Positions 19,463-57,159 of a stretch of 64,000 bases of DNA are shown here, piece after piece. The DNA is from Escherichia coli (GTDB lineage Bacteria > Pseudomonadota > Gammaproteobacteria > Enterobacterales > Enterobacteriaceae). A model generated the notes under the pieces. That model was not told the origin of the DNA. It searched no databases and saw nothing but the letters and a program-made list of their open reading frames with translations. How positions within the stretch are numbered: the first letter of the stretch is position 1; each line of letters begins with the position of its first letter. Where the stretch lies: the NCBI RefSeq assembly GCF_024502345.1, contig NZ_JALDNN010000001.1; one strand, given 5' to 3'. A program made the translations under genes and the position numbers.

Positions 19463-20038
19463 GTGCAACGTGAAGATGTACTGGGAGAAGCCCTGAAATT
19501 ATTAGAATTACAAGGGATTGCCAACACCACGCTGGAGATGGTTGCTGAACGTGTGGATTATCCACTGGACGAGCTGCGCCGCTTCTGGCCAGACAAAGAG
19601 GCAATCCTCTACGATGCGCTGCGTTATCTTAGCCAACAGATAGATGTCTGGCGTCGTCAGCTGATGCTGGACGAAACGCAAACCGCCGAACAAAAGCTGC
19701 TGGCACGTTATCAGGCGTTATCGGAGTGCGTTAAAAACAACCGCTATCCGGGCTGTCTATTTATCGCTGCCTGTACGTTTTATCCCGATCCTGGCCACCC
19801 TATTCATCAACTGGCCGATCAGCAAAAAAGCGCGGCCTACGATTTCACCCACGAACTGTTAACCACGCTGGAAGTTGACGATCCGGCGATGGTAGCAAAG
19901 CAGATGGAACTGGTGCTGGAAGGATGCCTGAGCCGGATGCTGGTGAATCGTAGCCAGGCGGATGTCGACACTGCACATCGGCTGGCGGAAGATATCCTGC
20001 GCTTCGCCCGCTGCCGCCAGGGTGGCGCATTGACCTGA
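19463..20038 (+). CDS. yjdC: TetR-family transcriptional regulator YjdC
   Basis: 191-aa ORF from GTG at 19463 ([31 protein letters not shown]), N-terminal TetR HTH; alternative upstream ATG at 19439. Confidence 0.8.
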
Positions 20039-20144
20039 CAGAAACACAGAAAAGAAGCGATTTGCCGCAATCTTAAGCAGTTGAATCGCTTTTACTGAAA
20101 TTAGGTTGACGAGATGTGCAGATTACGGTTTAATGCGCCCCGTT

Positions 20145-20220
20145 GCCCGGATAGCTCAGTCGGTAGAGCAGGGGATTGAAAATCCCCGTGTCCTTGGTTC
20201 GATTCCGAGTCCGGGCACCA
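20145..20220 (+). tRNA. pheU: tRNA-Phe (GAA anticodon)
   Basis: 76-nt GCCCGGATAGCTCAGTCGGTAGAGCAGGGGATTGAAAATCCCCGTGTCCTTGGTTCGATTCCGAGTCCGGGCACCA with anticodon loop TTGAAAA and 3-prime CCA; position after yjdC corresponds to pheU. Confidence 0.97.
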
Positions 20221-21071
20221 ATATTCATAAGGCCTCGCTGCAAAGCGGGGCTTTTTCCTTTTCTGGCTACGGTAGATTTCTGGTCGTTGCGGCACGTTAT
20301 TTGTTTGCTGGATTTCTCGCCATTTTCGCAGTTGTTCGTTACTTTTAGACACCTCAACATCCTTTGATGTACCTTTTCCTAACCTCACAGCTACGGTCTT
20401 TCTACGGTCCTCTACGATTCCTTTCTCTCAGAGCATTCATAATAAAGTAGAAAATACGGGGAAAACGGGGGAATTATCATTTCGCCCTAATCCGCAGGTC
20501 TTAACGTGATTTTGTCGCGGGGAATAAGGTGGGGAAATCCCCAATAGCAAGCGGGGAAATCTGGCAGCATACCCCCTCCACCATTCACATGGGGATCTTC
20601 ACCAGTCCGTCCACCTACAACAAGCTCTTCTTGCCCTTTCACTTCTTACCGTTTTCAGAATCCCCCGTTCTCCACGCCATCATAAAATGATTTATCCGTA
20701 AGCTTAACGTAATGGACTGTTGAACCTGAGTGTCCGCTGTGAGCGAAAAGCGGAACTTCTCACATAGGTAATGAAGCGTTTCCTAACGTCAGGGTGTACT
20801 AATCAACGAAGAGCAGGTCAGAGGACTCGAACCGCTTTCCTCTTCCATCTACGTAGAATTCCAAGAATTTATGTGCTTTCCAGTTACAATTTAGCCATGC
20901 TAAGTTAGAAAAAGCATTGAGTACCTTAGGATTGTATCGATGATACTCTAAGGATCTTGGAGGCTTGTGAGGCGTAAGGTTCAAAGCCAATAGTTTATTA
21001 ATAGTCACACAAGTGGCTCTATTTTTCGCCTACAAACCTATATTTTTCATACAAATAAAAGAAGTGTATTT

Positions 21072-22490
21072 ATGAATACTCAGCAAATTAAGGTTGGCAG
21101 TGTACCTGAAATTATTGAGCTATTACCAAACTCTAGCGAGCAGGCTGATTCTCATCCTTTCATCCTATCGGCAAACAGTGCATGGGGTGAACAGGGAGCA
21201 GAAATATCAATAGAGAGATTACGCCAAAATATCGAGCCTTGGCTAACAGCTCTCTTCCAATCCGAACATTTAAATTTATTGATAGGTGCGGGTTTAAGCA
21301 CGTCTATTCAAATATCGGCTACAGATTCACCTCCAGCTGGAATGGGTTGGATCAGCGATCTAGCCGTATGTAAAAGTGAAATAGATGCATTTTCTACTCT
21401 GGCTGCCAAAGCTGCAGGTCGCGATAACGGAAATATAGAAGATCAAATTAGAGCTATTAATGAACTTATTAAAGGGCTTGAAATTCTGACAGTGTTGAAT
21501 ACCCCTCAACCTGAAAATCCTCCAGCTCCTCATGCTGCTTATAGAAATCTAAAAACGGATTTAGAAATACTCAAGGGAGAGCTTTCTCGCTGCCTAGGTG
21601 AGTTTTCAAGATCTGTGAGTGCCGGAGAATACTTGATTAAAACTGCTGAACCAAAGCGTAAAGAGGAAACTTTCAACTATCTAGTTAGTTTCTTGATGAG
21701 CTTTGCAAGTAGGACCGCTACTCGCGATAGGTTGCATATTTTTACAACAAACTATGATCGCATTATTGAAGTAGGTGCTGAGCTTGCTGGTTTGAGACTT
21801 ATAGATCGCTTTGTAGGAAGTATCGCTCCAGTGTTTCGATCTTCAAGATTGGAGGTTGATTATCACTATAATCCTCCAGGAATTCGTGGCGAACCAAGAT
21901 ATTTAGAAGGCGTAGCGCGTTTTACTAAGCTTCATGGATCCCTTGATTGGCATGAACAAAATAGCGCGATTAGGCGCTTTGGTTTACCTTTTGGAGCACG
22001 TTCTGTTGAACCTTTTTTAGAAGCTGAAGGCCATCAAAGCAACAGCTTTGAACAACTTATGATTTACCCTAACTCAGTAAAAGATAGAGAAACTGCCGAG
22101 TACCCTTATGTTGAGCTATTTCGAGATCTAGCCGCAGCAACTAGCCGCCCAAATAGCACATTAGTCACCTATGGCTATAGCTTTGGTGATGAGCATATCA
22201 ACAGGGTAATTGAAGACATGCTTACAGTGCCTTCGACTCATGTAGTCATAATTGCCTTCGGAGATCCGCTTGGAAGAATCATAAATTTCATTAATAAGAG
22301 TGGAAGAAAAGCACAGATCACCCTATTAATGGGAGACCATTTAGGAGACCTCAAGACTTTAGTTGATAACTATTTACCTAAACCAGCTATTGATAAAGCA
22401 TCAATAAAAATGACTGAATTGCTTAAGCAAAGAGGATTTATCCAGCCCAAAGAATTAGGTAATTCAACTGGCTCCGAGGTATCACAATGA
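21072..22490 (+). CDS. SIR2-like NADase component of a SIR2-HerA anti-phage system
   Basis: 472-aa ORF with SIR2-family motifs GAGLS (in LLIGAGLSTS), TTNYD (in HIFTTNYDRII) and HGS (in TKLHGSLDW); translationally coupled to the downstream HerA-like gene. Confidence 0.8.
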   Translation: MNTQQIKVGSVPEIIELLPNSSEQADSHPFILSANSAWGEQGAEISIERLRQNIEPWLTALFQSEHLNLLIGAGLSTSIQISATDSPPAGMGWISDLAVCKSEIDAFSTLAAKAAGRDNGNIEDQIRAINELIKGLEILTVLNTPQPENPPAPHAAYRNLKTDLEILKGELSRCLGEFSRSVSAGEYLIKTAEPKRKEETFNYLVSFLMSFASRTATRDRLHIFTTNYDRIIEVGAELAGLRLIDRFVGSIAPVFRSSRLEVDYHYNPPGIRGEPRYLEGVARFTKLHGSLDWHEQNSAIRRFGLPFGARSVEPFLEAEGHQSNSFEQLMIYPNSVKDRETAEYPYVELFRDLAAATSRPNSTLVTYGYSFGDEHINRVIEDMLTVPSTHVVIIAFGDPLGRIINFINKSGRKAQITLLMGDHLGDLKTLVDNYLPKPAIDKASIKMTELLKQRGFIQPKELGNSTGSEVSQ

Positions 22491-24520
22491 GTTACTTACC
22501 AATAGAAAGATTAGAACAATTAAGAATTGGATCTGTTGGATTTGTATCACCTAATGAAATTAGAGTTTCTTTAGAGATTGACTCCCCTGATTCAGTGTCA
22601 CTTCAAGGCGGTTCCCCCCGCAATTTTCCTCGAATAAATAGTTATGTACTGATCAGTAGCGATGATGGATTTCTCGTCGGACAGGTTGAATGGATTGCCG
22701 TAGAACACTCTCCATACCCCAAAAGAAGAGGCTTACAAGATTTTGGCTTGATAGATCTTCCTTTTCCACTTAAAAAGCTCAGTATCAATCCCGTTGGTAC
22801 TTTGAGAGTCGATAGAAAAAACGAAGATTACAAGTTCACAAGAGGAACAGATGCTTTTCCCTCGGTTGGTGACTCCGTGCTCCTGCCTACTGACCGGCAA
22901 TTAAAATCAATAATAGAATCAGGTGACAATAGAAGAGTAAAAATAGGGGACAGCCCCCTAGCTAACAATGCGGAAATAAAAGTGGACCCTGATAGGCTTT
23001 TTGGACGACATTTAGCTGTTTTGGGCAATACAGGTAGTGGTAAATCATGCTCGGTTGCGGGGTTAATTCAATGGTCTTTAGATGCTGTTTTACAACAGGG
23101 ACAGATTCCAAATGCTCGGTTCATAATACTTGATCCAAATGGAGAATACAGTAGGGCATTCGGCCCAGAATCAAAATACAAGGGTAAGCTATTACGTGTA
23201 GAAGCTAACACTGGTGCTGAAGAGATAGATCTTAAAGTTCCGTCATGGTTATGGAATAGCTCTGAGTGGGGTGCTTTCACTCAAGCGAGTTCAAAAGTTC
23301 AACTTCCTTTACTACGCCGAGCTTTGAGGGCGATGAGAAATGATGTTTTATCAGAAGATGATGTGACAATCCAAGCGAAACACTTCTGCGGTATCCTACT
23401 CGTATCCATACGACAATTATCAAGCCAAGGCCAGATATATGTGAATGGCGGCCATGCCAAAGGTTTCGTTGATAGTTTAACGTCTTGGAATAATAGCCTG
23501 TCCACATTAAACGACAAAATCGATAACAAACCTTTCGATAATCTAATAAACACGATGAATGTGTATCTTTCCTCTCGTATAGGAATAAAATGGCCTGAAA
23601 AACCTGAAGTTTCAGATACTGATCAGTTGATTAATGAATTAAAAAATGCATATGAAACGCTTGGAGGTGATGAACAAGGACTTCTTCCAAAAAGTGAAGA
23701 TTCGCCTATTCGTTTTAAAGGGGATGATTTTGTCGCATACCTAGAAGCTCTAGCTCAAGAGACAGGCACAGAGCAATTCGTTGAATTCCTTTTGACTCGT
23801 ATTCGAACAATGCTAGGTGACACCCGTATAAGTGCAGTAACAAATGATTCGGAACAGCCTATCAGTTTAACTAATTGGTTAGACACTTTTCTCGGTAGAG
23901 ATGGACAAGGTTCCATAACTGTTATCGATTTATCGCTAGTCCCTAATGAAATAATACATTTGGTAACTGCTGTAATTTCCAGAGTAACTTTTGAAGCATT
24001 ACAACGTTATCGAAGACTTAAGGGGAAACCACTACCAACAGTTATGGTTGCAGAAGAAGCGCATACATTTATTAAACGCTACAAAGAAGATAGTGAGGGT
24101 CAGTCAGTCTCTGACGTATGCTGCAAAGTGTTTGAAAAGATCGCACGTGAAGGCAGGAAATTTGGGTTAGGTCTTGTAGTTTCTTCCCAACGACCCTCAG
24201 AGCTATCTCCGACTGTGTTATCTCAATGTAATACTTTTTTGTTGCACAGGATTAGTAATGATAGAGATCAAGAGCAAGTCCATAGACTTGTTCCCGATAA
24301 CATGAGGGGGTTGTTGAGGGAGTTGCCATCGCTACCATCTCGGCATGCCATTCTACTAGGATGGGCTTCTGAACTTCCGGTTTTAGTTAGAATGAAAGAG
24401 CTTACTGAAAAACAAAGACCACAATCTGACGATCCCGATTTTTGGGATGTGTGGTCTAACACTACAGAAGAGCCTCGCGAAGTTAATTGGCAACCAATAG
24501 CTGATGATTGGCAAAGTTAA
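22487..24520 (+). CDS. HerA-like FtsK/HerA-family ATPase of the SIR2-HerA system
   Basis: 677-aa ORF with Walker A GNTGSGKS, Walker B MVAEEAH and SSQRPSEL region; start overlaps the SIR2 stop (ATGA). Confidence 0.8.
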   Translation: MSYLPIERLEQLRIGSVGFVSPNEIRVSLEIDSPDSVSLQGGSPRNFPRINSYVLISSDDGFLVGQVEWIAVEHSPYPKRRGLQDFGLIDLPFPLKKLSINPVGTLRVDRKNEDYKFTRGTDAFPSVGDSVLLPTDRQLKSIIESGDNRRVKIGDSPLANNAEIKVDPDRLFGRHLAVLGNTGSGKSCSVAGLIQWSLDAVLQQGQIPNARFIILDPNGEYSRAFGPESKYKGKLLRVEANTGAEEIDLKVPSWLWNSSEWGAFTQASSKVQLPLLRRALRAMRNDVLSEDDVTIQAKHFCGILLVSIRQLSSQGQIYVNGGHAKGFVDSLTSWNNSLSTLNDKIDNKPFDNLINTMNVYLSSRIGIKWPEKPEVSDTDQLINELKNAYETLGGDEQGLLPKSEDSPIRFKGDDFVAYLEALAQETGTEQFVEFLLTRIRTMLGDTRISAVTNDSEQPISLTNWLDTFLGRDGQGSITVIDLSLVPNEIIHLVTAVISRVTFEALQRYRRLKGKPLPTVMVAEEAHTFIKRYKEDSEGQSVSDVCCKVFEKIAREGRKFGLGLVVSSQRPSELSPTVLSQCNTFLLHRISNDRDQEQVHRLVPDNMRGLLRELPSLPSRHAILLGWASELPVLVRMKELTEKQRPQSDDPDFWDVWSNTTEEPREVNWQPIADDWQS

Positions 24521-24941
24521 TTAACTTAACTAATTTTTAGTAGTGTTATAAGTAGTGGCTTATATCTGACATGACAGTTTAGGTTAGTAGTTTCAATCTA
24601 ACAGTAAGTGTCCACGGTGACGTTTTCATACTCAAATCTCCTGAAATGTGGGAGATTTGAGTATGGTTGTCCCTTATGAGCGAGGAGCGGAAGTTCTGCT
24701 TTAAGTGTATCAAACCCTCCAGCAAAGATGTTCTTGAATGTAATGCCATAATTTCCCTAACATTCCAGCACAAATCAATTAACTCTCAGTCCATAGTGTA
24801 TTTTACTTAAATTAAAATCAAATACTCTAGGAATTAAAATAACAAGATCACTTGCGATTATGCTATTTTAAATTAATATTTTTGTTTTTACTGGGGAACC
24901 TTCAAAACACGGAGCCAGATTTCTTCGTAGCTACCCTGTTG

Positions 24942-25766
24942 CTAGGGTTTCAAGTATTCCCCTAAAGGAAAGAAATTTTTTGACAACTTTTGGGATTCAG
25001 CAATTTTAACCAAATAAATATAGAATCCCAACAGAGCACTGTTCTCGCTTTCCCCCCTCGAATAGTGAACATGCCCAGGCACCTTCCGGATGAGGAAACC
25101 ATTATTTTTTACCAAATAATACCCTCTATCTAAAATTGTAATTACATCAGGCATATCATCTAAATCGATATTATTTCCAGTCATGTAATTAAACAGCGAA
25201 TCTCGTAAGGTACTTTCCTCTGGACCTTGGAAGGCTAGTAGTAAGAATGGTGTTTTTCTCAAGGTTGCACACATCCCTGAGATTTCCTCTACTAATTGCA
25301 CTGTATTTTGGGGAATATTTTCTTTCATAAAATAACCATCGTCAATACCGATTGGATTGATTCTTACCAAACCTTTTGACCTAACGCAAGCATCTAAGGT
25401 TGTCTTAAGGTTTGAAGCTCCTTCGGTCATTGAGCCAGTGTTTAATGAAGATTTACATTCAATTAACGCTAAAGCTGAATCGACAGGGACCATACACTGA
25501 TCTTTATCATAACTAAGTTTTAAAGAATGTTTCGAGTATATGATAATATCCATCTGACTTGAGAGATTATCCTTAGAGTCAAAAACCTGTCCTGATGTAA
25601 TATCTAAATTACTAGGGAGATTTGCTTTTAAAAATTCCCTTATTACAATTTCTCTAGCACTTCCTTTGCTACTCCCGTTCGTCGTTATGGATGACAAATT
25701 AAATGCTGAAACCAAAGATGCCGTATGGTTTTTTAAGTGTTTCTGGATTAATTTCATAAAGCTCAT
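24942..25766 (-). CDS. hypothetical protein, possible PD-(D/E)xK-like nuclease
   Basis: 274-aa ORF in AT-rich DNA convergent with herA; candidate motifs E (GSAREIVI), D (MDIIIYS) and ExK (ALIECKS); no family assigned with confidence. Confidence 0.5.
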   Translation of the reverse strand: MSFMKLIQKHLKNHTASLVSAFNLSSITTNGSSKGSAREIVIREFLKANLPSNLDITSGQVFDSKDNLSSQMDIIIYSKHSLKLSYDKDQCMVPVDSALALIECKSSLNTGSMTEGASNLKTTLDACVRSKGLVRINPIGIDDGYFMKENIPQNTVQLVEEISGMCATLRKTPFLLLAFQGPEESTLRDSLFNYMTGNNIDLDDMPDVITILDRGYYLVKNNGFLIRKVPGHVHYSRGESENSALLGFYIYLVKIAESQKLSKNFFPLGEYLKP

Positions 25767-26194
25767 TCCATTTTAATTTATCTACATCGCTTAAAGGCAA
25801 ATGATGCCACCGGCTACCAATTAAAAATTATCTCAACCTGAGAGATTTTTCCAGACTCCAAACGAAAATAAAAAACTACTCGTCACGTCCCTCCTGGCAC
25901 ATAGCCGACACCAAAACCAGCAACATATGGACAACGGTCCCTGCCCTGATGGCAGGTAATTGTATCAGACTTAAACACATATTATTTCTGTGAACTCCCC
26001 CCAACGGCAGTCCTTTCCTCTGAAGACCAGAACCAGACCGTAAAGCCTGCTCTTTCTGCATTTCCCGTATTAATTCATACCATGTGGCACCAGCATTCCC
26101 TTCGCCACACCAGAAAATCAATTCCCCAATAAAAAAGTGCCGTGCCGGGGATGGGTCAACCCTGACGTTCTTTACACCAGTCACAGGAGGTTAT

Positions 26195-27379
26195 ATGTCC
26201 ACCCCCAAACGCTTCCGTTTTACTAATCAGCTCATTAAATCCCTGCCCCCTAACACATCCGATGCACGCAGTACCGATGCCGAATACAGCGACACCGAGA
26301 TTTCCGGCCTCAAGTGTCTGGTCAGCAGAAGAGAAGGTCGTAAAAAGTTTTTGCTACGCTACCTTTATCATGGACGAAAACGCGCCATCGCCATTGGTCA
26401 CTGGCCTGAAGTGGACGTCAATCTTGCTCGTCAGATTGCCATAGAACACAAACGTTCCCTTGCCACCGGCACTGACCCTAAGCAGGAGCGTGAAAACAAG
26501 AGAATGGAGCTGACGTTCGATGAACTCTTTAATCAGCATTATCTGCCATGGGCAAAATCCGCTAAACGCAGTTGGGGAAAGGATGTTCAGCGCTACCGCG
26601 ATCATATCCGTCCCGCCATTGGTCAGAGGCTGCTGAGCGATATCACACCAGCGAGCATTCTGCGCCTTCAGCAGACGTTAAGTACTTCCCTGTCAGCAGC
26701 TACCTGTAACCGTGTCATCGTACTCATTAAAGCCGTCTTTACATGGGCCGGAAGGCAAAGCATGACCTCTGTCCATCCGGCAAGGGTGGTACAGCTTCTC
26801 AGGGAGAACAACGCCCGACAGCGCTATTTCACCGAGGACGAAATTCGTCGTATTTTTCTCTCCGCCGATAACGATACCAGCCCCGTCGCGGCCCGCTATG
26901 TCAAACTGTTGTTACTGACCGGCCTTCGTCGTGATGAGCTGCGTCTGGCTAAGTGGGAGCATGTTGACCCGGTTAAACGCACCCTGTGGCTCCCGGAAAC
27001 CAAGAATGGCTATGGGCGGATTGTTCACCTTAACTCACTGGCGATGGACGTAATCAGAACGCTGCCAACGCAGCGGGGAAATCCGTGGTTGTTTATCGGT
27101 AAAAAACAAGGAATGCCGCTGAATAACCCCGTTAAAGCCTTTCAGCGTATCGTTCGTCGGGCGGGAATTTTCGACCAGGAAGTGTGTATTCATACCTGCC
27201 GCCATTCGGTTGCCGCCCTCATCGTGTCCTACGGCGGAACACTGTATGACGTTCAGGCTCAACTGGGGCACCGCAGCAGTCAGTCTTCACAACGTTATGC
27301 GCATCTTCACCCTCAGCGCTTACAAAACACCAGTCAGTTACTGGCGGAAAGGATAACGGCTCAGCTACCGTCCTTGTGA
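26195..27379 (+). CDS. tyrosine-type site-specific integrase
   Basis: 394-aa ORF from ATG 26195 preceded by AGGAGG; catalytic boxes TGLRRDELRLAKWEHVD and HTCRHSVAAL...LGHRSSQSSQRYAHL (R, HxxR, Y). Confidence 0.85.
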   Translation: MSTPKRFRFTNQLIKSLPPNTSDARSTDAEYSDTEISGLKCLVSRREGRKKFLLRYLYHGRKRAIAIGHWPEVDVNLARQIAIEHKRSLATGTDPKQERENKRMELTFDELFNQHYLPWAKSAKRSWGKDVQRYRDHIRPAIGQRLLSDITPASILRLQQTLSTSLSAATCNRVIVLIKAVFTWAGRQSMTSVHPARVVQLLRENNARQRYFTEDEIRRIFLSADNDTSPVAARYVKLLLLTGLRRDELRLAKWEHVDPVKRTLWLPETKNGYGRIVHLNSLAMDVIRTLPTQRGNPWLFIGKKQGMPLNNPVKAFQRIVRRAGIFDQEVCIHTCRHSVAALIVSYGGTLYDVQAQLGHRSSQSSQRYAHLHPQRLQNTSQLLAERITAQLPSL

Positions 27380-27434
27380 TAACAGAAAAGCAGAGGCAAG
27401 TGCCCCTGCTTTTTTTTTACTGTTCAGCCATCAG

Positions 27435-27791
27435 TCAGAACGGGATGGCCCCATATTCTTCATCCGGCACCCGGTTATCATCAAATCTGTTATAGAGTTC
27501 ACGAGCACACTCGCGCGCGTCTTTAATAGACATACGAGGGAACCTGCCGAGGGGTTCATAATAGCAGGCCCCTTCAAGCGTATAACGAGCCAGGAATTTA
27601 ATCTCACCGTTGGCAATGACGGCCCGGAGCGCAGGCTCGCTGCCATCGAAGATTTCACGAGAAATGCCGTGATAAAGGCACTCCGCCAGTGTGTTAACCA
27701 GAGCGTAATCATTGAATGAGGTTTTTTCTTCATTTTCGCTGCTGATAGCGTGAGGAAAACCGTCATAGTACTGGTCTGATTCAAAAATCAT
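27435..27791 (-). CDS. hypothetical protein
   Basis: 118-aa ORF directly downstream of and co-oriented with the DUF927-like gene. Confidence 0.45.
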   Translation of the reverse strand: MIFESDQYYDGFPHAISSENEEKTSFNDYALVNTLAECLYHGISREIFDGSEPALRAVIANGEIKFLARYTLEGACYYEPLGRFPRMSIKDARECARELYNRFDDNRVPDEEYGAIPF

Positions 27792-27840
27792 ACATCACCT
27801 TCTATTGGTTGTTATTCAGTCAAAATGGTTTTATTCAGGG

Positions 27841-29769
27841 TTAAAATTCGGTCATCACATTGCATTTCAGAAACGCTTTTTTGACCTGGTAGTAAGACTG
27901 CGCCATCGTCTTCAGCGCTCTTTTTTTATAGTGTCCGGCACTTTCGCCAAGCAGATAACCGGAACGCTCTAACGGTCTGGCCACATCAACGGTCTTAAGT
28001 CCCTTTTCAGAACAGAGCTTTTCAAACACCGATTCATAAATCAGGAAGTCGCCGGTTTTGTAATGGACGAATCCCCACATATCTCCCGGGCATCGGGCAT
28101 GTTCGTCACGCAGGGTGATAAAGTGCCTGCTGCTTTTTGTCACCAGCGTCAGCTGAAGCTCCTCCAGCATGTTACGCACCGGGTTATACTGATTCTGGTT
28201 ATCATCCAGCCAGCGTCGTGCAGCGGACATAACGGATTCAGCCACCGCATCGCTTTCGAAAGGTAAAAGGCCATATTTCAGCGCCTTCTCTCCTGCCAGC
28301 CATACCAGCGCAAATCTTTTCAGTCCGCGCCGCTGAACGCGGGTAATATCACGCCCCTCATCCCTCAGGGCCTCTTCCAGTGCGTTACAGCAATCATCTG
28401 TCTGTTCCTGGAGCCAGGATGAAAACTCTGCGTAGGTGCGAAGACCGCCAGCCGTATTTTTCCCGGATAACAGTTTGCCGATAAATGCAGGCCCGGCATG
28501 ACCATAAGCCTCTGCCAGCCCCGTCTTCAGTGCATCTGCACGGGCACGTGTTTCTGATACCGGTTCATCCGGTTTTTGAGCATCCTCAGGCAACAGTTCC
28601 ATACTGATGGCCCTGTGCTCCTGCCCTCCCTGTAACACGGCTTTCTGTTCAGCCAGCTTTTCGGAGATTGACATCTCACCGGTGGAGAGAATAAACATGC
28701 GCCATTTAAACGGCTCATCTGCCGTCAGGCCACGGTTCAGGCGCTCTTTTGCCGTACCTGACGTAATGTTGTAAAGCAGTGAGGAAAGTTGCTTATGATT
28801 ACTCGCACCCAGTTCATCGACGCAGGCGACCAGACCGGAATAGTCAGCGAGAAGGCGCTCCATCGCGTTAGGCGTGGTATTCCAGCGAATAATATTTACA
28901 TTCCCCCCACTACCCGGCTCGCTGCCATCACCATGGACCGATGCAGCCAGCATCAGGAGAAGCGTTTTACCGGTGGTGGATACGCCGTGAAAATGAAACA
29001 TGCCCACATCCATACCGGCAGGAACCAGAAGCATCGAAGCAAAGGACGCACTCAGTGCAAAGGTCTGCGCCCAGCCATGGACATTTTCCCGGATGAGGTT
29101 AATCCACTCCTCCAGGGCCCCACCTTTGTGCAGTCCGGGACGCACGCGGAATCCCGGCAGTAGATAATCAAACCCGGTCAGAGAGGTCACAACGGGCTCA
29201 TGACCATGTAAAAAGGCCATATCCTCCGAAACGAATCCCATCGCATCTGCCATCAGATAGACAGGCAGCGGTAAACTCCGGCAGCGCTGAAGAAAACGGT
29301 CAAAAAGGGCAAACTGCTGTGGAGAGGAGCCAACACAAAATCCACGATCTGCCAGTTTGCCTACTACCTGAGCACCGCTCTGAACAATATCCTCAAAGCG
29401 TACCAGGGCCTTAACATACTTACCCAGCCCGTTACCGGTCATCAGGCTGATCCCAAGACCGGACTCCTTATCTTTTCCACAAAACAGGGCGACAGGCACA
29501 ACTGGCGTGGTGCAAACCTGCACAGGTTTCTGTCCACCGATGTAGAAAAGGCCATTAGCCGTATTCACATAATGCCGTGGCAGCCCATCACCAATACCGA
29601 GTGAAGCGATATCATCTTCACCGACCTCAGTGTTTTCAGCACGCCTGATAATTGCTTCCGACATTTTGTTGAAATTTTTATCGCGGTCAGCAAAAGCGCG
29701 AATACGCTTAATCCCGGAAACCTTAGGAACATTAGTTGTCACTTTTTTATTCATGTGTATTACCATCAA
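27841..29769 (-). CDS. DUF927-type P-loop NTPase, putative replication initiation (primase/helicase-like) protein of an integrative element
   Basis: 642-aa ORF with Walker A GVSTTGKT and Walker B-like VACVDELG; co-oriented immediately downstream of an integrase gene. Confidence 0.6.
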   Translation of the reverse strand: MMVIHMNKKVTTNVPKVSGIKRIRAFADRDKNFNKMSEAIIRRAENTEVGEDDIASLGIGDGLPRHYVNTANGLFYIGGQKPVQVCTTPVVPVALFCGKDKESGLGISLMTGNGLGKYVKALVRFEDIVQSGAQVVGKLADRGFCVGSSPQQFALFDRFLQRCRSLPLPVYLMADAMGFVSEDMAFLHGHEPVVTSLTGFDYLLPGFRVRPGLHKGGALEEWINLIRENVHGWAQTFALSASFASMLLVPAGMDVGMFHFHGVSTTGKTLLLMLAASVHGDGSEPGSGGNVNIIRWNTTPNAMERLLADYSGLVACVDELGASNHKQLSSLLYNITSGTAKERLNRGLTADEPFKWRMFILSTGEMSISEKLAEQKAVLQGGQEHRAISMELLPEDAQKPDEPVSETRARADALKTGLAEAYGHAGPAFIGKLLSGKNTAGGLRTYAEFSSWLQEQTDDCCNALEEALRDEGRDITRVQRRGLKRFALVWLAGEKALKYGLLPFESDAVAESVMSAARRWLDDNQNQYNPVRNMLEELQLTLVTKSSRHFITLRDEHARCPGDMWGFVHYKTGDFLIYESVFEKLCSEKGLKTVDVARPLERSGYLLGESAGHYKKRALKTMAQSYYQVKKAFLKCNVMTEF

Positions 29770-29838
29770 ATTACGCCACCGTCAGAAAACGGGTGCATCA
29801 GAACCATAGTTAAAAACCATACCGTTGAGTGAAGGTTG

Positions 29839-31251
29839 TTACCCCATCGCCCGGTTAACGACTTCGTGGTAACGCGCCGGGGAAGCGTGCAAGTAAAGCT
29901 CCGTTACTTTGATAGTGCTGTGACCCAATAAGTCTTTGACGGTGTGAATGTCGGCCCCGCTCTCAATGAGCTTTGTCGCAAAGGTATGACGCATCTCATG
30001 GATGGTGAACGGTGGAATACCCGCAGCCTCACAAAGTCGTTTTTGCAGGCGACGCGGCTCAGCAACCGGATTGTCGGTTCCCTTGCCCGGAAATACCCAG
30101 CCTTCATCACCCAGATGCTGACGCTGTTCTGTCAGAAGAACGAAAGCCTTATCACATACCGGTACACGGCGTAGTTTGCCGTTTTTGGTATGGCGAAGGG
30201 TGATAACCTTGCGGCTCCAGTCCACATCTTCAAGACGAAGGTGACGGGTTTCCCCCAGACGCAGCCCCGTCAGGGCAAGGAACATGAGAAGAGCAAGGGC
30301 TTCATGATCGGGTTTACCATTACGCCAGCGCTCACAGACGTCCATCCAGCGCTGAAGCTGGGAGTCATCCATGGCACGGCGATCTGACGTCACTTCAGGC
30401 AGCGCTTTGATATAAAGCGCCGGAGAGCGGCTGATGTATCCCATGCGTATAGCCCAGGTAAACACCGCTTTAATGAGCGCCAGATGGCGGTTGCGGGTGG
30501 CAGGCTTGAGATCGAGATTATGCAGATAGCTCAGAATATCTGCCTCCGTCATACCTGCCAGCTTTTTGTCACCGAGAAGAGGGCGCAGGTATTTACGGAT
30601 CTTAGAAAGGTCGGTGTTAGCTGAACGCTTAACGCCCGTGCTGAGTACGCTTTTCTCATACTCATCCACAAGCTCATTAAACGTCATTTTACTGTGAGTA
30701 AGAAAACGCTCACCGTAAGCCTCAACGGCGGTCTTGAGCTCCTGAATTATTTTAAAGGCATGCTCCCTTGCATCTTTAATTGAAATTTCCGGGTAGCCTC
30801 CTACGGCAACGTAGATATTCTTTCCGCGAATACTTTTGCGGACAATAAATTTAATGCGACCTGATGGATAGAATATTGCCTTAAGTCCGGTTAACTTCTT
30901 ATCGCTGGTCTCGATTGTTTGTGCAGCTTGTACTGCACGGATTTTATATTCATCAAAAAGGGCTTTAGTAAAAACACCTCCAGTATTTTTAGGTGCAACC
31001 CCTGGATATTCTACAACATCAGATACTCCAGAGTCGGAATACCCCTGAGCTTCCACATCTACATTGAAGGAATTTTTATGAGCAGCTGTGATGCTCTTTT
31101 CATCCAGCACTTGCGTTATTTTATTTAAAGGGTAATTAACTTTCATAATATGTACATGGTCCTCTGAAAATTCAGATGATAATGAGTAATTTAATATGTC
31201 GGCCAACAATGGGATAAGCTTATTTATTCGTGGCATCACTTTCAAGCCCAT
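29839..31251 (-). CDS. tyrosine-type site-specific integrase
   Basis: ORF with catalytic boxes ALTGLRLGETRHLRLEDVD and HEMRHTFATKLIESGADIHTVKDLLGHSTIKVTELYLH; true start codon uncertain. Confidence 0.85.
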   Translation of the reverse strand: MGLKVMPRINKLIPLLADILNYSLSSEFSEDHVHIMKVNYPLNKITQVLDEKSITAAHKNSFNVDVEAQGYSDSGVSDVVEYPGVAPKNTGGVFTKALFDEYKIRAVQAAQTIETSDKKLTGLKAIFYPSGRIKFIVRKSIRGKNIYVAVGGYPEISIKDAREHAFKIIQELKTAVEAYGERFLTHSKMTFNELVDEYEKSVLSTGVKRSANTDLSKIRKYLRPLLGDKKLAGMTEADILSYLHNLDLKPATRNRHLALIKAVFTWAIRMGYISRSPALYIKALPEVTSDRRAMDDSQLQRWMDVCERWRNGKPDHEALALLMFLALTGLRLGETRHLRLEDVDWSRKVITLRHTKNGKLRRVPVCDKAFVLLTEQRQHLGDEGWVFPGKGTDNPVAEPRRLQKRLCEAAGIPPFTIHEMRHTFATKLIESGADIHTVKDLLGHSTIKVTELYLHASPARYHEVVNRAMG

Positions 31252-31423
31252 GAAAAATCAGCTCTTACATGCCCATTGACATTTAATACTCAAGTCAGAA
31301 AGACCATGATGATTCATCAGGAGTACTCCTGCTCAGGGAAAAGGGAAAATAGCGTTAAACCCTATAAAAAAATTGTGTTCCGGATGCATCGCCCAAAGTA
31401 AGTCAACTTTTGAGGCCCTGAAG

Positions 31424-32468
31424 GGCTTTGTTGAATAAATCAGATTTCGGGTAAGTCTCCCCCGTAGCGGGTTGTGTTTTCAGGCAATACGCACGCTTTC
31501 AGGCATACCTGCTTTCGTCATTTTGTTCAGCGCTCGTACCAGGGCCATAGCCTCCGCAACCTGACCATCGTAGTCACGCAGCGTCAGTGAACCCCCGAAC
31601 AGCTGTTTTACCCGGTACATCGCCGTTTCCGCTATCGAGCGACGGTTGTAATCTGTTGTCCATTTCCACCGCGCATTACGCTGATTAGCCACTGCACGGT
31701 TACGGTCTGCATATTCACCGGGCCAGTAACCCGCACCTTTTCGGGGAGGGATAAGCGCGCTGATTTTCTTACGCCGCAGTTCATCGTGACAGAGCCGGGT
31801 GTCGTAAGCGCCGTCTGCCGATGCTGCCCTGATTTTTCTGTGAGTCTGCCGGATAAGACCCGGGAAGGCTTCTGAGTCCGTCACATTGTTCAGCGACAGG
31901 TCAGCGCAGATGATTTCATGTGTTTTACTGTCAACGGCGAGATGCAGCTTACGCCAGATACGGCGGCGTTCCTGGCCATGCTTTTTGACTTTCCACTCGC
32001 CTTCACCGAAGACCTTCAGCCCGGTGGAATCAATTACCAGGTGTGCGATTTCACCCCGGGTGGGCGTTTTGAAACTGACGTTAACCGACTTTGCCCGCCT
32101 GCTGACACAGCTGTAATCCGGGCAGCGTAGCGGAACGTTCATCAGAGAAAAAATGGAATCAATAAAGCCCTGCGCAGCGCGCAGGGTCAGCCTGAATACG
32201 CGTTTAATGACCAGCACAGTCGTGATGGCAAGGTCAGAATAGCGCTGAGGTCTGCCTCGTGAAGAAGGTGTTGCTGACTCATACCAGGCCTGAATAGCTT
32301 CATTATCCAGCCAGAAAGTTATGGAGCCACGGTTGATGAGGGCTTTATTGTAGGTGGGCCAGTTGGTGATTTTGAACTTTTGCTTTGCCACGGAACGGTC
32401 TGCGTTGTCGGGAAGATACGTGATCTGATCCTTCAACTCAGCAAAAGTTCGATTTATTCAACAAAGCC
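31424..32468 (-). mobile_element. IS5-family, IS903-group insertion sequence
   Basis: 18-bp terminal inverted repeats GGCTTTGTTGAATAAATC at 31424..31441 and 32451..32468, flanked by a 9-bp direct duplication GCCCTGAAG (31415..31423 and 32469..32477). Confidence 0.9.
31480..32436 (-). CDS. IS903-group transposase (DDE)
   Basis: 318-aa ORF filling the IS; C-terminal segment DGAYDTRLCHDELRRKKISALIPPRKGAGYWPGEYADRNRAVANQR recalled as IS903-type transposase. Confidence 0.85.
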   Translation of the reverse strand: MKDQITYLPDNADRSVAKQKFKITNWPTYNKALINRGSITFWLDNEAIQAWYESATPSSRGRPQRYSDLAITTVLVIKRVFRLTLRAAQGFIDSIFSLMNVPLRCPDYSCVSRRAKSVNVSFKTPTRGEIAHLVIDSTGLKVFGEGEWKVKKHGQERRRIWRKLHLAVDSKTHEIICADLSLNNVTDSEAFPGLIRQTHRKIRAASADGAYDTRLCHDELRRKKISALIPPRKGAGYWPGEYADRNRAVANQRNARWKWTTDYNRRSIAETAMYRVKQLFGGSLTLRDYDGQVAEAMALVRALNKMTKAGMPESVRIA

Positions 32469-32799
32469 GCCCTGAAGTAAGAAAATGGTAATAGACCCCA
32501 CCGATTTTCGACTAAAAAACAACCCAATAAGGCATTTAAAATTAATGCTATTTAAATCAATAGATTAAAGTGATGATTTTGACAATATGCAGCCCAACTT
32601 AAGGGTAAATCAACCTTTCAACAATCAAAACCACACTCCATTAATTTTTATTATTGTGACAATCATCACATTTTACACCTGCGGGTGCTTTGATTTTGTA
32701 CATTCACAAAGCTCACCAACCCCAACGACTATGAACGTAAAAAACCTCTTTTTATGCACATATTATTTCCATGTAAATCAATTCATTATGGAGATAATC

Positions 32800-37393: not shown

Positions 37394-39271
37394 ATGAGGT
37401 TTATGATGGCTGGCCAGTATGAAAAAGCAATAACGATAAAACAAGCGATAGATTCAATTAATTTACGCCACTATCTTCTGCCTGCAATTCAGAGGAAGTT
37501 CGTCTGGAGCAGCAGTCAAATATGTTTGCTGTTTGATTCCATCATGCGAGACTACCCGATAAACTCTTTCATGATGTGGGATATCCGTAGTGCCAGTATT
37601 AAAAATGATTACAAATTCTATGAATTCCTGAAAGAATACTGTCAGCGATTTAATGAAGAAAACCCCTGCGTAGCAACAAATGCTGGATTTCATGATTTCA
37701 AGGCGGTGATTGATGGTCAGCAGCGTCTCACATCATTATATATTGGATTGTGTGGAACGTATGCGTATAAACAGCCCCGGGTGTGGTGGCCTTCGGCACA
37801 GGATGATCGCATCCTGCCGCCCAGAAAGCTTTACGTCGATTTAACAGCGCCACTTAATTCAGACGATGAGCTCATGATGAAGTATAACTTCAGGTTCCTG
37901 ACCGACAAGCAATACGCTGATTCACTTACAGACAACAAGCATCACTGGTTCTGCCTGCACGAAATATTCAAATACGAGCAACATGATTCGCCTGATGATA
38001 TTTTATTTAACGTTGTCGTACCAGAACTCGAAAAAAGAGGACTCATTTCCAGTGAATTTTCCAGAAAAACATTACTGAGACTTTATACAAAAATAAGAAC
38101 TGAGAACATCATCCACTACTTCAATGAGAGTAGTCAGGATATTGACCATGTGCTGGATGTTTTCATACGCACGAACAGCGGGGGGACAAAACTTGAGTTC
38201 TCCGACTTACTGATGTCAATAGCGGTAGCGCACTGGCAGGGTGATTTCAGAAGAGAACTGGATGAACTGACAAAAAACATTTATCAGAATAATGAAATGG
38301 GGTTTTATATTGAAAGAGACTGGTTCTTAAAAACCAGCCTGATGCTTATTGACTCTGACGTCCGGTTCAAAGTAAAAAACTTCACTTCAGAGGAGGTCGG
38401 TAAGATACAACAACAATGGTCTGAAATAAAATCCTGCATCAAGGAGACTTTTATTCTTATCAGGCGATTCGGCATCAATCCACAGTCTTTGATATCTAAA
38501 AATGCAGTCATTCCTGTGGTCTACTGGCTTTACAAAAAGCAAACCAGTGGACATCCATTATATACAACGATTAACCTCCTGAATAAAAACCACAATGAAC
38601 GCTCAGTAATTAGCCAGTGGTTTTACATGGTACTTCTGAAAGGGATCTTTGGAAGCCAGGCAGATGCGCTACTCACGAGTATCAGAGATGTAATGAAAAA
38701 TAGTCTTTCAGATATTCACTTTCCTCTTGAAAAGATTATTGACAGATATAAAGGCTCGAATAAAGACCTCAGATTTGACGACGAATACATCGAAAGCCTT
38801 CTCAATATCAGATATGGCGAAGGTCGTTGCCGCGCACTATTGCATCTTCTGTTCCCTGAAATGAATCCGACCGAGGTGTTTCATATTGATCACCTTCACC
38901 CAAGAAATCACTTCTCAAAGAAATATCTTGAAAAATTAGATTATGTTGCGAACTCACCAGAGAACCTCAGCTTTTATGAAAACCCGGAACACTGGGACAC
39001 CATACCTAATCTTCATTTACTGAATCATTCTCAGAATATAAGTAAACAGGATACTTCCCTGAAACAATGGCTATCTCAGCCATCAAACAACTATTCGCCA
39101 TCAATGCTGTTAGTTTCAGATGAAAATATTGAGTTCAGTCGCTTCCCGGAATTCTACAATGAACGAAGAAACGCCCTGAAGCAAAGACTACTGAATCGGG
39201 TATTTCTTACAACAAAAATAGATTCATCACCATCCACAATCGATACGGATGAAGAAATTCTCACCGACTGA
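37394..39271 (+). CDS. GmrSD-family type IV restriction endonuclease (DUF262 + DUF1524)
   Basis: N-terminal DUF262 hallmark DGQQR (in KAVIDGQQRLTSLYIG) and C-terminal His-Me finger-like HIDHLHPRNH; likely start at ATG 37406 after GAGG. Confidence 0.8.
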   Translation: MRFMMAGQYEKAITIKQAIDSINLRHYLLPAIQRKFVWSSSQICLLFDSIMRDYPINSFMMWDIRSASIKNDYKFYEFLKEYCQRFNEENPCVATNAGFHDFKAVIDGQQRLTSLYIGLCGTYAYKQPRVWWPSAQDDRILPPRKLYVDLTAPLNSDDELMMKYNFRFLTDKQYADSLTDNKHHWFCLHEIFKYEQHDSPDDILFNVVVPELEKRGLISSEFSRKTLLRLYTKIRTENIIHYFNESSQDIDHVLDVFIRTNSGGTKLEFSDLLMSIAVAHWQGDFRRELDELTKNIYQNNEMGFYIERDWFLKTSLMLIDSDVRFKVKNFTSEEVGKIQQQWSEIKSCIKETFILIRRFGINPQSLISKNAVIPVVYWLYKKQTSGHPLYTTINLLNKNHNERSVISQWFYMVLLKGIFGSQADALLTSIRDVMKNSLSDIHFPLEKIIDRYKGSNKDLRFDDEYIESLLNIRYGEGRCRALLHLLFPEMNPTEVFHIDHLHPRNHFSKKYLEKLDYVANSPENLSFYENPEHWDTIPNLHLLNHSQNISKQDTSLKQWLSQPSNNYSPSMLLVSDENIEFSRFPEFYNERRNALKQRLLNRVFLTTKIDSSPSTIDTDEEILTD

Positions 39272-42200: not shown

Positions 42201-42316
42201 CGGACCATTGATACCGGCAGGGTTTGTTCTCACCCGCCCGGTATCAGGCTTTAAGAATGCCGGAAGATGCTTCTGATACCCTTCCGGAATTTGCCAGATG
42301 ACGCACAGGATGCACC

Positions 42317-45300: not shown

Positions 45301-45433
45301 TGGGACGGAGCTAAATGAGACGCTACCAAAGCTCAGTCCGCTGAATCCTCAGTACAAAACGAAAAAGCAGACTGTATTCCAGAAAATTGGGGCATTTATC
45401 GAAAAATTTAAAGGGGTTGGAGGACACCTCTAG
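42317..45433 (+). CDS. hsdR: type I restriction enzyme R subunit (helicase/endonuclease)
   Basis: 1038-aa ORF with helicase motifs RPYQ, TGSGKT and DECH (IFDECHRSQ). Confidence 0.9.
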
Positions 45434-46270: not shown

Positions 46271-46319
46271 GGGATTGAAAATCCCCGTGTCCTTGGTTCG
46301 ATTCCGAGTCCGGGCACCA
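46271..46319 (+). repeat. 49-bp direct repeat of the tRNA-Phe 3-prime end (island junction, att-site core)
   Basis: GGGATTGAAAATCCCCGTGTCCTTGGTTCGATTCCGAGTCCGGGCACCA is identical to tRNA-Phe positions 20172..20220. Confidence 0.95.
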
Positions 46320-52566: not shown

Positions 52567-52812
52567 GTGTTGTATCTAATCGTGGGGGCAGGTCACTCGA
52601 CTTGGTTCCATTAAAAACCATGAAGTTGATATAGGGTCAAGATTTTATACGATATACACATCAAGCATCTTGCATGAGTCGCACTGACTGACCCGGGTTA
52701 GTTACCATCATATTCTTTATGGTTGAGACCATACGGAAATCAGTGAATTAAAAATATTTATTCATCCAAAACACAAATGGTTTTAAGAAAGCCTAATGCC
52801 CTTCTTGTAAAA

Positions 52813-57146: not shown

Positions 57147-57159
57147 AGCTCCCCTTTTC

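What the first reader, a model, noticed from the sequence alone, without database searches (positions are those of the whole stretch)
24942..25766. Orphan 274-aa gene with nuclease-like motifs convergent with SIR2-HerA: candidate single-gene defence protein
Seen in sequence: a lone ORF on the opposite strand in the same AT-rich block as SIR2-HerA, separated from the integrase-bearing GC-richer DNA. It contains a possible PD-(D/E)xK-like triad spaced as in restriction-endonuclease folds (E in GSAREIVI, D in MDIIIYS, ExK in ALIECKS). Inference: could be a stand-alone defence nuclease or abortive-infection factor. The assignment is tentative.
Basis: inference. Interest (0 to 1): 0.55.

Follow-up and report, generated by a model that had tools for sequence, protein, structure and literature searches.

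The report
Stand-alone NucC-like nuclease gene beside SIR2-HerA
The gene is real and encodes a DNA-cutting enzyme with the same fold as NucC, a known phage-defence nuclease, but it lacks NucC's signal-binding site and travels alone, so it is most likely a one-gene phage-defence nuclease of a family (DUF6602) already linked to defence.

Summary
The ORF at 24942-25766 (-) exists. Its true start is probably 25757, giving 271 aa. It is under purifying selection (dN/dS 0.11-0.22).

- **Not a cA3 receptor:** the NucC contacts for cyclic tri-AMP (R53, Y81, T226) are not conserved. The gate loop is replaced by a longer two-helix insertion. No cyclase lies in the window or beside the homologues examined.
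- **Travels alone:** homologues occur as a Vibrio cholerae integron cassette, beside an integron integrase in Halomonas, in a lambdoid prophage and in defence islands with varied neighbours.
- **Not tied to SIR2-HerA:** linkage holds inside one Enterobacteriaceae tRNA-Phe island family. Ninety-per-cent-identical SIR2-HerA pairs travel without the gene. Two E. coli strains lost it to an IS903B-linked deletion and kept SIR2-HerA.

Closest precedent is Damona, a single-gene DUF6602 defence cassette. Verdict: a new member of a known kind; defence function and trigger remain inferred. Interest moderate.

The parts
24942..25757 (-). Coding sequence of the DUF6602 / NucC-fold nuclease (271 aa from the conserved start; the longest ORF runs to 25766, 274 aa)
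   Evidence: ORF. Homologues start at M4. The upstream ATG is not conserved in L009. Identical to P0193. Pfam DUF6602 1.3e-20. dN/dS 0.11-0.22.
25452..25652 (-). Catalytic core: E39 (25652-25650), D73 (25550-25548), E103-C-K105 (25460-25452). This is the PD-(D/E)xK motif, equivalent to NucC IDx30EAK.
   Evidence: Codons read. Invariant or nearly invariant. Aligned to NucC D73 and E104/K106. NucC active site as described in 10.1101/694703.
25272..25352 (-). Subfamily-specific insertion (residues ~139-165, two predicted helices) at the position of the NucC gate loop
   Evidence: Helices 143-149 and 154-163 in the model. About 23 extra residues relative to EcNucC 129-146. Absent from more distant DUF6602 relatives. 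Least conserved part of the protein.
25758..25910 (-). Conserved 5' flank that travels with the gene (presumed own promoter and ribosome-binding region)
   Evidence: 92% identical in L011 and 83% in L009, in unrelated contexts. No promoter is proven; the scan gave only weak consensus matches.
24915..25794 (.). 880-bp segment holding the whole gene, replaced by a 1057-bp IS903B in E. coli cS33a and fM51a
   Evidence: blastn breakpoints. Junctions lack a target-site duplication. Annotation of both strains.
21072..24520 (+). Neighbouring SIR2-HerA two-gene defence system (context, not part of the unit)
   Evidence: PADLOC SIR2 2.7e-154 and HerA 2e-252. The DNA block shared with pVPS43 and ICE R997 ends at 24515.
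20145..20220 (+). tRNA-Phe, left boundary of the ~26-kb island (context)
   Evidence: ARAGORN, Rfam.
46297..46319 (+). Perfect 23-nt repeat of the tRNA-Phe 3' end, right boundary of the island (context)
   Evidence: the DNA search: 2 matches against 0 expected.

Best explanation
The gene encodes a stand-alone, metal-dependent DNA endonuclease of the NucC / DUF6602 family. It acts as a one-gene anti-phage or abortive-infection module.

**Shown:**
- It is a full-length NucC-fold PD-(D/E)xK protein with an intact E39/D73/E103-x-K105 active site.
- It moves as a single gene with its own roughly 150-bp 5' region.
- It is not tied to SIR2-HerA or to any cyclic-oligonucleotide synthase in the loci examined.
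- The NucC contacts for cyclic tri-AMP, and the gate loop, are not retained.

**Inferred:**
- Like NucC, it probably forms an oligomer (trimer to hexamer) that is kept inactive in uninfected cells.
- On infection it is probably switched on to cut DNA with little sequence specificity, destroying phage DNA, host DNA or both.
- The switch is not cA3. It is an unknown phage-linked cue, read through the rebuilt region at the former allosteric site: the conserved RINPxGxD segment plus a variable two-helix insertion.
For: - **Active site.** Conserved in 118 relatives and aligned to NucC D73/E104/K106.
- **Lost cA3 site.** R53 becomes N53. Y81 becomes H80/S81. The 'GTVP' segment of Serratia NucC, placed by numbering offset at EcNucC T226-V227, aligns with 'NFFP' here. 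The gate loop is replaced by about 23 extra residues. Across the family the R53 column shows mostly N, S, L, A, F and T, with no Arg among the common residues.
- **Autonomy.**
  - A 49%-identical, same-length homologue is a single-gene V. cholerae integron cassette bounded by repeats of about 121-135 nt.
  - A 50%-identical one sits about 1.4 kb from an integron-integrase-like ORF in Halomonas.
  - Another sits after the antiterminator gene of a lambdoid prophage.
  - Others sit beside PDC-S28 plus R-M, PDC-S59, or Septu.
  - No small partner gene is conserved.
- **Independence from SIR2-HerA.**
  - 89.5-90%-identical HerA with SIR2 travels without it on pVPS43 and ICE R997.
  - Two E. coli strains lost exactly this gene and kept SIR2-HerA.
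- **Precedent.** Damona, a single-gene DUF6602 cassette, gave phage resistance when cloned alone, and is reported to match Cas PD_DExK and a small CBASS endonuclease profile, much as here.
Against: - No experiment on this protein exists. Defence, nuclease activity, oligomeric state and trigger are all inferred.
- Loss of the cA3 site rests on sequence alignment. The C-terminal half aligns poorly by sequence (hhalign stops at residue 138), and I could not inspect coordinates or model a trimer.
- The fold keeps all NucC embellishments, and the segments around the former pocket are well conserved (RINPxGxD 0.85; residues 206-224 0.88). A small-molecule ligand therefore remains possible.
- In Enterobacteriaceae the gene was next to SIR2-HerA in 13 of 13 places shown. 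A second, unrelated SIR2-HerA lies 3.2 kb from a 72%-identical homologue.
- In P. moorei the homologue sits among ordinary metabolic genes.
- The Damona sequence could not be obtained for direct comparison.
Confidence: 0.6

Rival explanations
1. Orphan signal-dependent effector. The protein is a NucC-type nuclease still gated by a small nucleotide messenger. The messenger could be cA3 bound in a different way or another cyclic or linear nucleotide. It would be made by a CBASS, type III CRISPR or other system elsewhere in the genome, or by the phage.
For: Full-length NucC fold including the embellishments that build the allosteric pocket. Segments flanking the former pocket are conserved within the subfamily. 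The best PADLOC hits are CRISPR-associated PD_DExK and CBASS NucC effectors.
Against: The cA3-contacting side chains and the gate-loop latch are not conserved, here or across 118 relatives. No CD-NTase, Cas10 or other cyclase was seen in the window, nor in the Pfam or record annotation of the loci that carried annotation; most of the 23 genome loci were checked only for SIR2/HerA. A single-gene integron cassette is hard to reconcile with dependence on a distant partner.
Confidence: 0.13
2. Accessory or second effector of SIR2-HerA. The nuclease works with the neighbouring HerA ATPase, as the DUF4297 nuclease does in DUF4297-HerA, or it responds to SIR2 activity. The locus would then be a three-gene system.
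For: Invariant int-DUF6602-HerA-SIR2 order in all 13 Enterobacteriaceae places shown, at two different chromosomal sites. A 72%-identical homologue lies 3.2 kb from a different SIR2-HerA subtype. HerA is known to pair with nucleases (PMC12198126, listed; title and abstract only).
Against: The 13 places are one island lineage (99.7-100% identical), so they count as one observation. At least nine other lineages of the subfamily, and 23 more distant genome loci, have no SIR2 or HerA homologue in their flanks. The shared SIR2-HerA DNA block ends at the HerA stop, and 90%-identical pairs carry other genes there. cS33a and fM51a keep both SIR2 and HerA annotated as full-length, non-pseudogene CDSs without this gene. 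The genes are convergent with a 421-bp gap. Papers describe SIR2-HerA as a two-gene system (PMC11472057 and PMC11514289, abstracts).
Confidence: 0.09
3. Solitary sequence-specific or modification-dependent (type IV-like) restriction endonuclease. It would cut particular sites or modified phage DNA constitutively, with no switch.
For: Restriction-endonuclease fold, with the CCGG-family enzymes as the next-best structural neighbours. No methyltransferase is adjacent, which would suit a type IV enzyme. The gene sits in an island with type I R-M and a DUF262 gene.
Confidence: 0.1
4. Element-maintenance or selfish function rather than phage defence. Examples are a nuclease used in island or cassette competition, plasmid exclusion or an addiction-like role.
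For: It is always on mobile DNA (islands, an integron cassette, a prophage). It has been lost or broken repeatedly, in the E. coli IS903B variant and as fragments in E. roggenkampii, as expected for a costly gene.
Against: Its neighbours are mostly recognised or candidate defence systems. The only tested DUF6602 gene protected against phage. No antitoxin-like partner is conserved.
Confidence: 0.05

Closest known systems
NucC (cA3-activated endonuclease of type III CBASS and some type III CRISPR systems; PDB 6p7o, 6p7p, 6q1h, 6uxf, 7zgv)
   Different: The cA3 contacts R53, Y81 and T226 are not conserved. The gate loop with its H136/Y141 latch is replaced by an insertion about 23 residues longer with two helices. 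There is a 7-residue insertion after the E-x-K motif. No CD-NTase or Cas10 partner was seen in the loci examined.
Damona (single-gene DUF6602 anti-phage cassette of the Vibrio cholerae N16961 chromosomal integron; Darracq et al., bioRxiv 10.1101/2024.07.02.601686)
   Same: Same Pfam domain (DUF6602). The paper reports matches to Cas PD_DExK and a small CBASS endonuclease profile, paralleling the PADLOC hits here. It is a single gene. Close relatives of the window protein are likewise integron cassettes in Vibrio.
   Different: The V. cholerae cassette I found (P0021, 49% identical) occurs on only 9 contigs, and no N16961 protein appeared in the searches. Damona is therefore probably a more distant DUF6602 member. 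Here the gene sits in a tRNA-Phe island, not an integron.
Type IIP restriction endonucleases of the CCGG family (Kpn2I, PspGI, BsaWI, NgoMIV, SgrAI)
   Different: Only the core aligns. There is no cognate methyltransferase, and the NucC-type embellishments are present instead.
DUF4297-HerA and SIR2-HerA (Nezha) systems
   Same: A PD-(D/E)xK nuclease gene lies next to a HerA ATPase gene, and a SIR2-HerA pair is the immediate neighbour.
   Different: The nuclease family is different: Pfam reports only DUF6602 for this protein. The orientation is convergent and the module is separate. The linkage is not conserved outside one island lineage.

Membership tests
PD-(D/E)xK restriction-endonuclease-like superfamily | Restriction-endonuclease core fold | tested here: met
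PD-(D/E)xK restriction-endonuclease-like superfamily | Conserved acidic residues and Lys in the D...(D/E)xK arrangement | tested here: met
   D73 and K105 invariant, and E103 at least 90% conserved, in 118 sequences; E39 also invariant.
Pfam DUF6602 (PF20247) | Significant match to the family HMM | tested here: met
   E = 1.3e-20 over residues 25-122. All 11 sequences of alignment A3 match. Sources name the identical protein 'DUF6602 domain-containing protein'.
NucC (cA3-activated effector) | Whole-chain NucC architecture (core plus embellishments) | tested here: met
NucC (cA3-activated effector) | Active-site motif IDx30EAK (D73, E104, K106) | tested here: met
   MD73-x29-E103-C-K105, aligned column for column.
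NucC (cA3-activated effector) | cA3-binding residues R53, Y81, T226 | tested here: not met
   N53, H80/S81 and 'NFFP' in place of 'GTVP'. No Arg is common in the R53 column across 118 relatives. This is alignment-based; the C-terminal position is less certain.
NucC (cA3-activated effector) | Gate loop with H136/Y141 latch | tested here: not met
   Replaced by residues ~135-175, about 23 residues longer, with two predicted helices.
NucC (cA3-activated effector) | Encoded in a CD-NTase operon or a type III CRISPR locus | tested here: not met
   None in the 64-kb window, and none in the annotated homologue contexts.
NucC (cA3-activated effector) | Homotrimer that becomes a hexamer and cleaves DNA on cA3 binding | not testable with these tools
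   No multimer prediction or biochemistry was available.
Damona (DUF6602 single-gene defence) | blastp match to V. cholerae N16961 Damona (at least 50% query coverage, E < 1e-5; the authors' criterion) | not testable with these tools
   The sequence was not retrievable. The supplement text has no entry. No N16961 protein appeared.
Damona (DUF6602 single-gene defence) | DUF6602 domain with secondary matches to Cas PD_DExK and a CBASS endonuclease | tested here: met
   Searches compared with the paper's description.
Damona (DUF6602 single-gene defence) | Protects against phage as a single gene | not testable with these tools
   Only indirect support: single-gene integron cassettes and varied neighbours.
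SIR2-HerA system (as a third component) | Co-occurrence with SIR2-HerA conserved across independent lineages | tested here: not met
   Present in 2 lineages and absent in at least 9 (and the context calls). SIR2-HerA at 90% identity occurs without it. The gene is deleted in cS33a and fM51a while SIR2 and HerA remain annotated as full-length CDSs.
Type II restriction-modification system | Adjacent cognate DNA methyltransferase | tested here: not met
   The neighbours are HerA and an integrase. The type I R-M genes lie 14 kb away.

The most novel reading that the evidence does not exclude
A NucC-fold nuclease whose allosteric site has been rebuilt, with a conserved RINPxGxD segment and a fast-varying two-helix insertion in place of the cA3 gate loop. 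It would read a new kind of cue: a phage protein or nucleic acid, or a non-cyclic-oligonucleotide metabolite such as a product of NAD+ cleavage by the neighbouring SIR2. That would make it a self-contained sensor-effector derived from a second-messenger effector. It might also explain the two independent co-locations with SIR2-HerA.
Probability: 0.12. Interest if true: 0.75.

Novelty: new member of a known kind. Interest (0 to 1): 0.4.

Why it matters
NucC is understood as a nuclease that stays off until a cyclase makes cyclic tri-AMP. This gene belongs to a large, mostly unstudied set of proteins: 4,269 cluster representatives at E <= 0.001, and 911 AFDB50 matches, the 50 listed all named DUF6602. 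These proteins keep the NucC body but, in the loci examined, have no cyclase partner. In the 118 relatives aligned they also lack the cA3 contacts.

One such protein, Damona, is reported to protect against phage on its own. Working out how a non-specific nuclease of this fold is kept silent and then triggered without a second messenger would extend the known logic of defence effectors.

This copy is a convenient test case. It is small, has its own 5' region, sits in E. coli next to a characterised system, and has natural deletion variants for comparison. Beyond that the finding is not surprising. The family is named, the identical protein is annotated in public records, and defence is the expected reading.

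Tried and rejected
- **First structure prediction.** The 21-sequence alignment gave an unusable model (pLDDT 48.6). I replaced it with the 118-sequence alignment.
- **Family libraries.** NCBIfam gave no family. PHROGs gave one weak family of unknown function.
- **Phage collections.** No match in 50,697 phage records. No confirmed relative in IMG/VR. The 'phage gene' idea is therefore supported only by one prophage context and one phage-like context.
- **E. coli genomes.** megablast of the gene against 5,426 complete E. coli genomes found nothing. That led to the IS903B replacement variant.
- **GTDB species representatives.**
  - The close-family patterns gave no confirmed locus.
  - The 118-sequence alignment was too diverse to search with.
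  - An 11-sequence alignment gave 23 loci.
- **Damona sequence.** Not in the stored supplement. Not recovered by the profile or P0021 protein searches, nor among the top 50 AFDB50 hits.
- **Conserved small partner gene.** The small ORFs next to homologues are unrelated to each other and to the window flank. Rejected.
- **Non-coding features.** No RNA family other than the tRNA in 19500-32500. No terminator-like site between HerA and the gene.
- **ICE R997 'endonuclease'.** I checked whether the gene at the same convergent position is a relative. It is Endonuclease I and unrelated.
- **hhalign of the close family against Serratia NucC.** It aligned confidently only to residue 138. Statements about the C-terminal pocket residue are correspondingly weaker.

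Full report
**1. Observation**

Three points show it is a real gene.
- **Homologues.** Twenty full-length homologues of 51-91% identity exist among 5.8 billion proteins, all carrying Pfam DUF6602.
- **Selection.** dN/dS against four of them is 0.11-0.22.
- **Public records.** The identical protein (from Met4) is named 'MULTISPECIES: DUF6602 domain-containing protein [Enterobacteriaceae]'.

The first ATG is probably not used. Homologues start at MKLIQ. In locus L009 the upstream ATG is ATT, with a 1-nt indel. The CDS is best given as 24942..25757.

GC is 0.35-0.43 across the SIR2-HerA and gene block and 0.50-0.54 from the integrase onward. The gene is convergent with HerA, with a 421-bp gap.

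**2. What the protein is**

*Sequence matches*
- Pfam finds DUF6602 at residues 25-122 (E = 1.3e-20).
- PADLOC finds the CRISPR-associated PD_DExK profile (5.8e-27) and two NucC effector profiles (2e-15 and 8e-14).
- A direct sequence search of the PDB finds only NucC chains, over the N-terminal 100 residues.
- An exhaustive profile search found 4,269 cluster representatives at E <= 0.001. Among the 150 best listed, most are 240-280 aa and many match along their full length.

*Structure*
- A 118-sequence alignment from those hits gave a very confident model (pLDDT 95.9, pTM 0.93). The 21-sequence attempt had failed.
- Foldseek gives only NucC chains below E = 1e-11.
- The family profile aligns to Serratia NucC over residues 21-253 (E = 2e-27).
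- AFDB holds a model of the identical Enterobacter protein that superposes at TM 0.98.

The protein is therefore a full-length NucC homologue, not just a generic PD-(D/E)xK domain.

**3. The active site**

The NucC paper defines the active site as IDx30EAK, with D73 and E104 binding Mg2+. D73N abolishes both cleavage and immunity (10.1101/694703). Here the aligned residues are D73 and E103-C-K105.
- D73, K105, E39 and G35 are invariant in 118 sequences.
- E103, R38, S69 and Q71 are at least 90% conserved.

**4. The allosteric site**

NucC binds cA3 through R53, Y81 and T226, plus the V227 main chain. It closes a gate loop latched by H136 and Y141, and mutation of any of these kills activation.

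| NucC feature | This protein |
|---|---|
| R53 | N53 |
| Y81 | H80/S81 |
| 'GTVP' segment (seen in Serratia NucC; I place EcNucC T226-V227 here by numbering offset) | 'NFFP' |
| 18-residue gate loop | about 41 residues, with two predicted helices (143-149, 154-163) |

- Across the 118 relatives the R53 column shows mostly N, S, L, A, F and T.
- The long insertion is specific to the close subfamily; more distant DUF6602 proteins have a short loop.
- The insertion is the least conserved part of the protein (0.50-0.58 majority fraction). It is flanked by well conserved segments: RINPxGxD at 0.85 and residues 206-224 at 0.88.

I conclude that this protein is unlikely to be a cA3 receptor. Two caveats apply. 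The C-terminal half aligns poorly by sequence. I could not inspect coordinates or model the trimer.

**5. Genomic context in the window**

*The island*
- The backbone is E. coli (dcuA-cutA-dsbD-dicD-tRNA-Phe).
- The gene lies in an island of about 26 kb. Its limits are tRNA-Phe (20145-20220) and a perfect 23-nt repeat of the tRNA 3' end at 46297-46319.
- The island holds:
  - SIR2-HerA and this gene;
  - two integrases, a DUF927 gene and an IS903-like copy;
  - a DUF262 gene and a type I R-M system.
- No CBASS or CRISPR genes are in the window.

*Separate DNA modules*
- The block shared with SIR2-HerA on V. parahaemolyticus pVPS43 and ICE R997 is 20841-24515 and stops at the HerA stop codon.
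- The block shared with two other carriers of the nuclease gene is about 24891-25910. It covers the gene plus 125-150 bp of conserved 5' flank.

**6. Context of homologues**

*The same island*
- The identical protein is indexed in 173 blocks of the assembly collection.
- In all 13 places shown the order is integrase - DUF6602 - HerA - SIR2, at two chromosomal sites: next to dsbD, or next to DUF554 and an ornithine/lysine/arginine decarboxylase-family (OKR_DC) gene.
- SIR2 and HerA there are 99.7-100% identical to the window's. This is one island lineage and counts as one observation.

*Outside that lineage the neighbours change*
- 91%: a phage-like contig, after a lambda-P-type replication gene.
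- 84%: next to PDC-S59.
- 74%: P. moorei, among metabolic genes.
- 72%: an island with Septu and a different SIR2-HerA that is only 31-35% identical.
- 66%: a P. aeruginosa integrase island with PDC-S28 and a type II R-M system.
- 60%: a Shewanella locus beside a transposase.
- 51%: a lambdoid prophage in Motilimonas, downstream of the antiterminator gene.
- 49%: a V. cholerae integron cassette bounded by repeats of about 121-135 nt, in an array rich in toxin-antitoxin cassettes.
- 50%: Halomonas faecis, about 1.4 kb from an integron-integrase-like ORF and flanked by attC-like elements.

*Further points*
- No small partner ORF is conserved.
- More distant DUF6602 genes on plasmids also sit alone or beside Abi-type genes.
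- The subfamily is rare. No relative was found in the phage or IMG/VR collections. Only two members at 39-50% identity were found among 100,044 species-representative genomes, with the search patterns used.

**7. Relation to SIR2-HerA**

*Against a functional unit*
- Ninety-per-cent-identical SIR2-HerA pairs carry a NYN-domain gene or Endonuclease I at the convergent position instead.
- Most nuclease lineages lack SIR2-HerA.
- In E. coli cS33a and fM51a the 880-bp segment 24915-25794 is replaced by a 1057-bp IS903B without a target-site duplication. That is the signature of an IS insertion followed by an adjacent deletion. SIR2 and HerA remain annotated as full-length, non-pseudogene CDSs.
- Papers describe SIR2-HerA as a two-gene system (abstracts).

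*For a link*
- There are two independent co-locations: the window, and L021.

I treat this as unexplained and give the accessory hypothesis about 9%.

**8. Mechanism**

*Shown*
- NucC fold, with an intact catalytic motif.
- Single-gene mobility with its own 5' region.
- Absence of the cA3 contacts and of any cyclase partner in the loci examined.

*Inferred*
- Mg2+-dependent DNA cleavage.
- A NucC-like oligomeric switch, given that the N-terminal helix is retained.
- Activation on infection by a cue other than cA3, read by the rebuilt region.
- An outcome of either phage-DNA destruction or abortive infection.

*Precedent*
- Damona is a single-gene DUF6602 cassette of the V. cholerae N16961 integron, named among 16 cassettes that reduced phage plaquing when cloned alone. 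The authors note the same secondary matches, to Cas PD_DExK and a small CBASS endonuclease.
- I could not obtain its sequence. Membership by the authors' blastp criterion is therefore untested.

**9. Verdict**

The sharper statement is that this is a stand-alone NucC-family (DUF6602) nuclease. It has a conserved active site and a rebuilt allosteric region, and it rides in a tRNA-Phe defence island next to SIR2-HerA but separately from it.
- **Novelty.** It is a new member of a known kind. The family is named, the identical protein is annotated in public records, and a family member has been tied to defence.
- **Open question.** What switches on a NucC-fold nuclease that has no second messenger? 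That question gives the locus moderate interest.

Noticed in passing
window 24915-25794; L007 8916-9972; L008: In E. coli cS33a and fM51a (Malawi) this 880-bp segment is replaced by a 1057-bp IS903B with no target-site duplication. SIR2, HerA and the integrase remain in place. This is a natural knockout of the gene.
   Followed up: yes
window 20145-20220 and 46297-46319: The tRNA-Phe and a perfect 23-nt repeat of its 3' end delimit an island of about 26 kb. Its cargo includes SIR2-HerA, the nuclease gene, a DUF262 gene (37394-39271) and a type I R-M system (39475-45433). A further integrase ORF at 46517-47782 appears to start a second element placed in tandem.
   Followed up: partly
window 52600-64000: This stretch is 100% identical to two 250-270-kb records of E. 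coli strain 44. It encodes heavy-metal P-type ATPases, CueR, a Cd/Pb regulator and a cation-diffusion transporter.
   Followed up: no
window 31422-32468: An IS903-like copy, 96.5% identical to the IS903B that replaces the nuclease gene in cS33a, sits beside the second integrase gene (29839-31251). In cS33a the corresponding integrase is annotated as a shorter CDS (about 276 aa) next to an IS3-family element.
   Followed up: no
window 20841-24515; L061 (pVPS43); L062 (ICE R997): The SIR2-HerA block is shared at about 83% DNA identity (HerA protein 89.5-90%) with a V. parahaemolyticus conjugative plasmid and Proteus ICE R997. Each carries a different convergent gene right after HerA: a NYN-domain protein or Endonuclease I.
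   Followed up: yes
L021 5138-7664; L018 387-1499: A nucleoid-associated-protein-type gene (Pfam NA37) lies next to DUF6602 homologues in two unrelated loci. In L021 it forms an overlapping three-gene run with a RelA_SpoT-domain gene, which has a weak PADLOC PDC-S33 match. This may be another candidate defence module.
   Followed up: no
L021 9725-15140: The island carrying the 72%-identical homologue also holds Septu (PtuA/PtuB) and a SIR2-HerA pair only 31-35% identical to the window's. This is a second, independent co-location of the nuclease subfamily with SIR2-HerA.
   Followed up: partly
cluster of P0001: Enterobacter roggenkampii records hold the gene as fragments (75 aa plus 183 or 221 aa on the same large contigs), and several E. 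coli entries are partial. This suggests recurrent disruption of the gene in some strains.
   Followed up: no
L009 1-30: The metagenomic contig carrying the 84%-identical homologue begins inside a tRNA-Phe gene (30-nt perfect match to window 20170-20199). PDC-S59 sits between the tRNA and the nuclease gene. That island may use the same type of integration site with different cargo.
   Followed up: no
L039 9017-9487: The 39%-identical homologue in a gammaproteobacterial MAG is followed by a 156-aa ORF with a weak, below-cutoff SLATT_4 match.
   Followed up: no
window 20221-21071: About 850 bp between the tRNA-Phe and SIR2 contain no ORF supported by any evidence gathered here. The sequence shared with the pVPS43 SIR2-HerA block begins only at 20841.
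   Followed up: no
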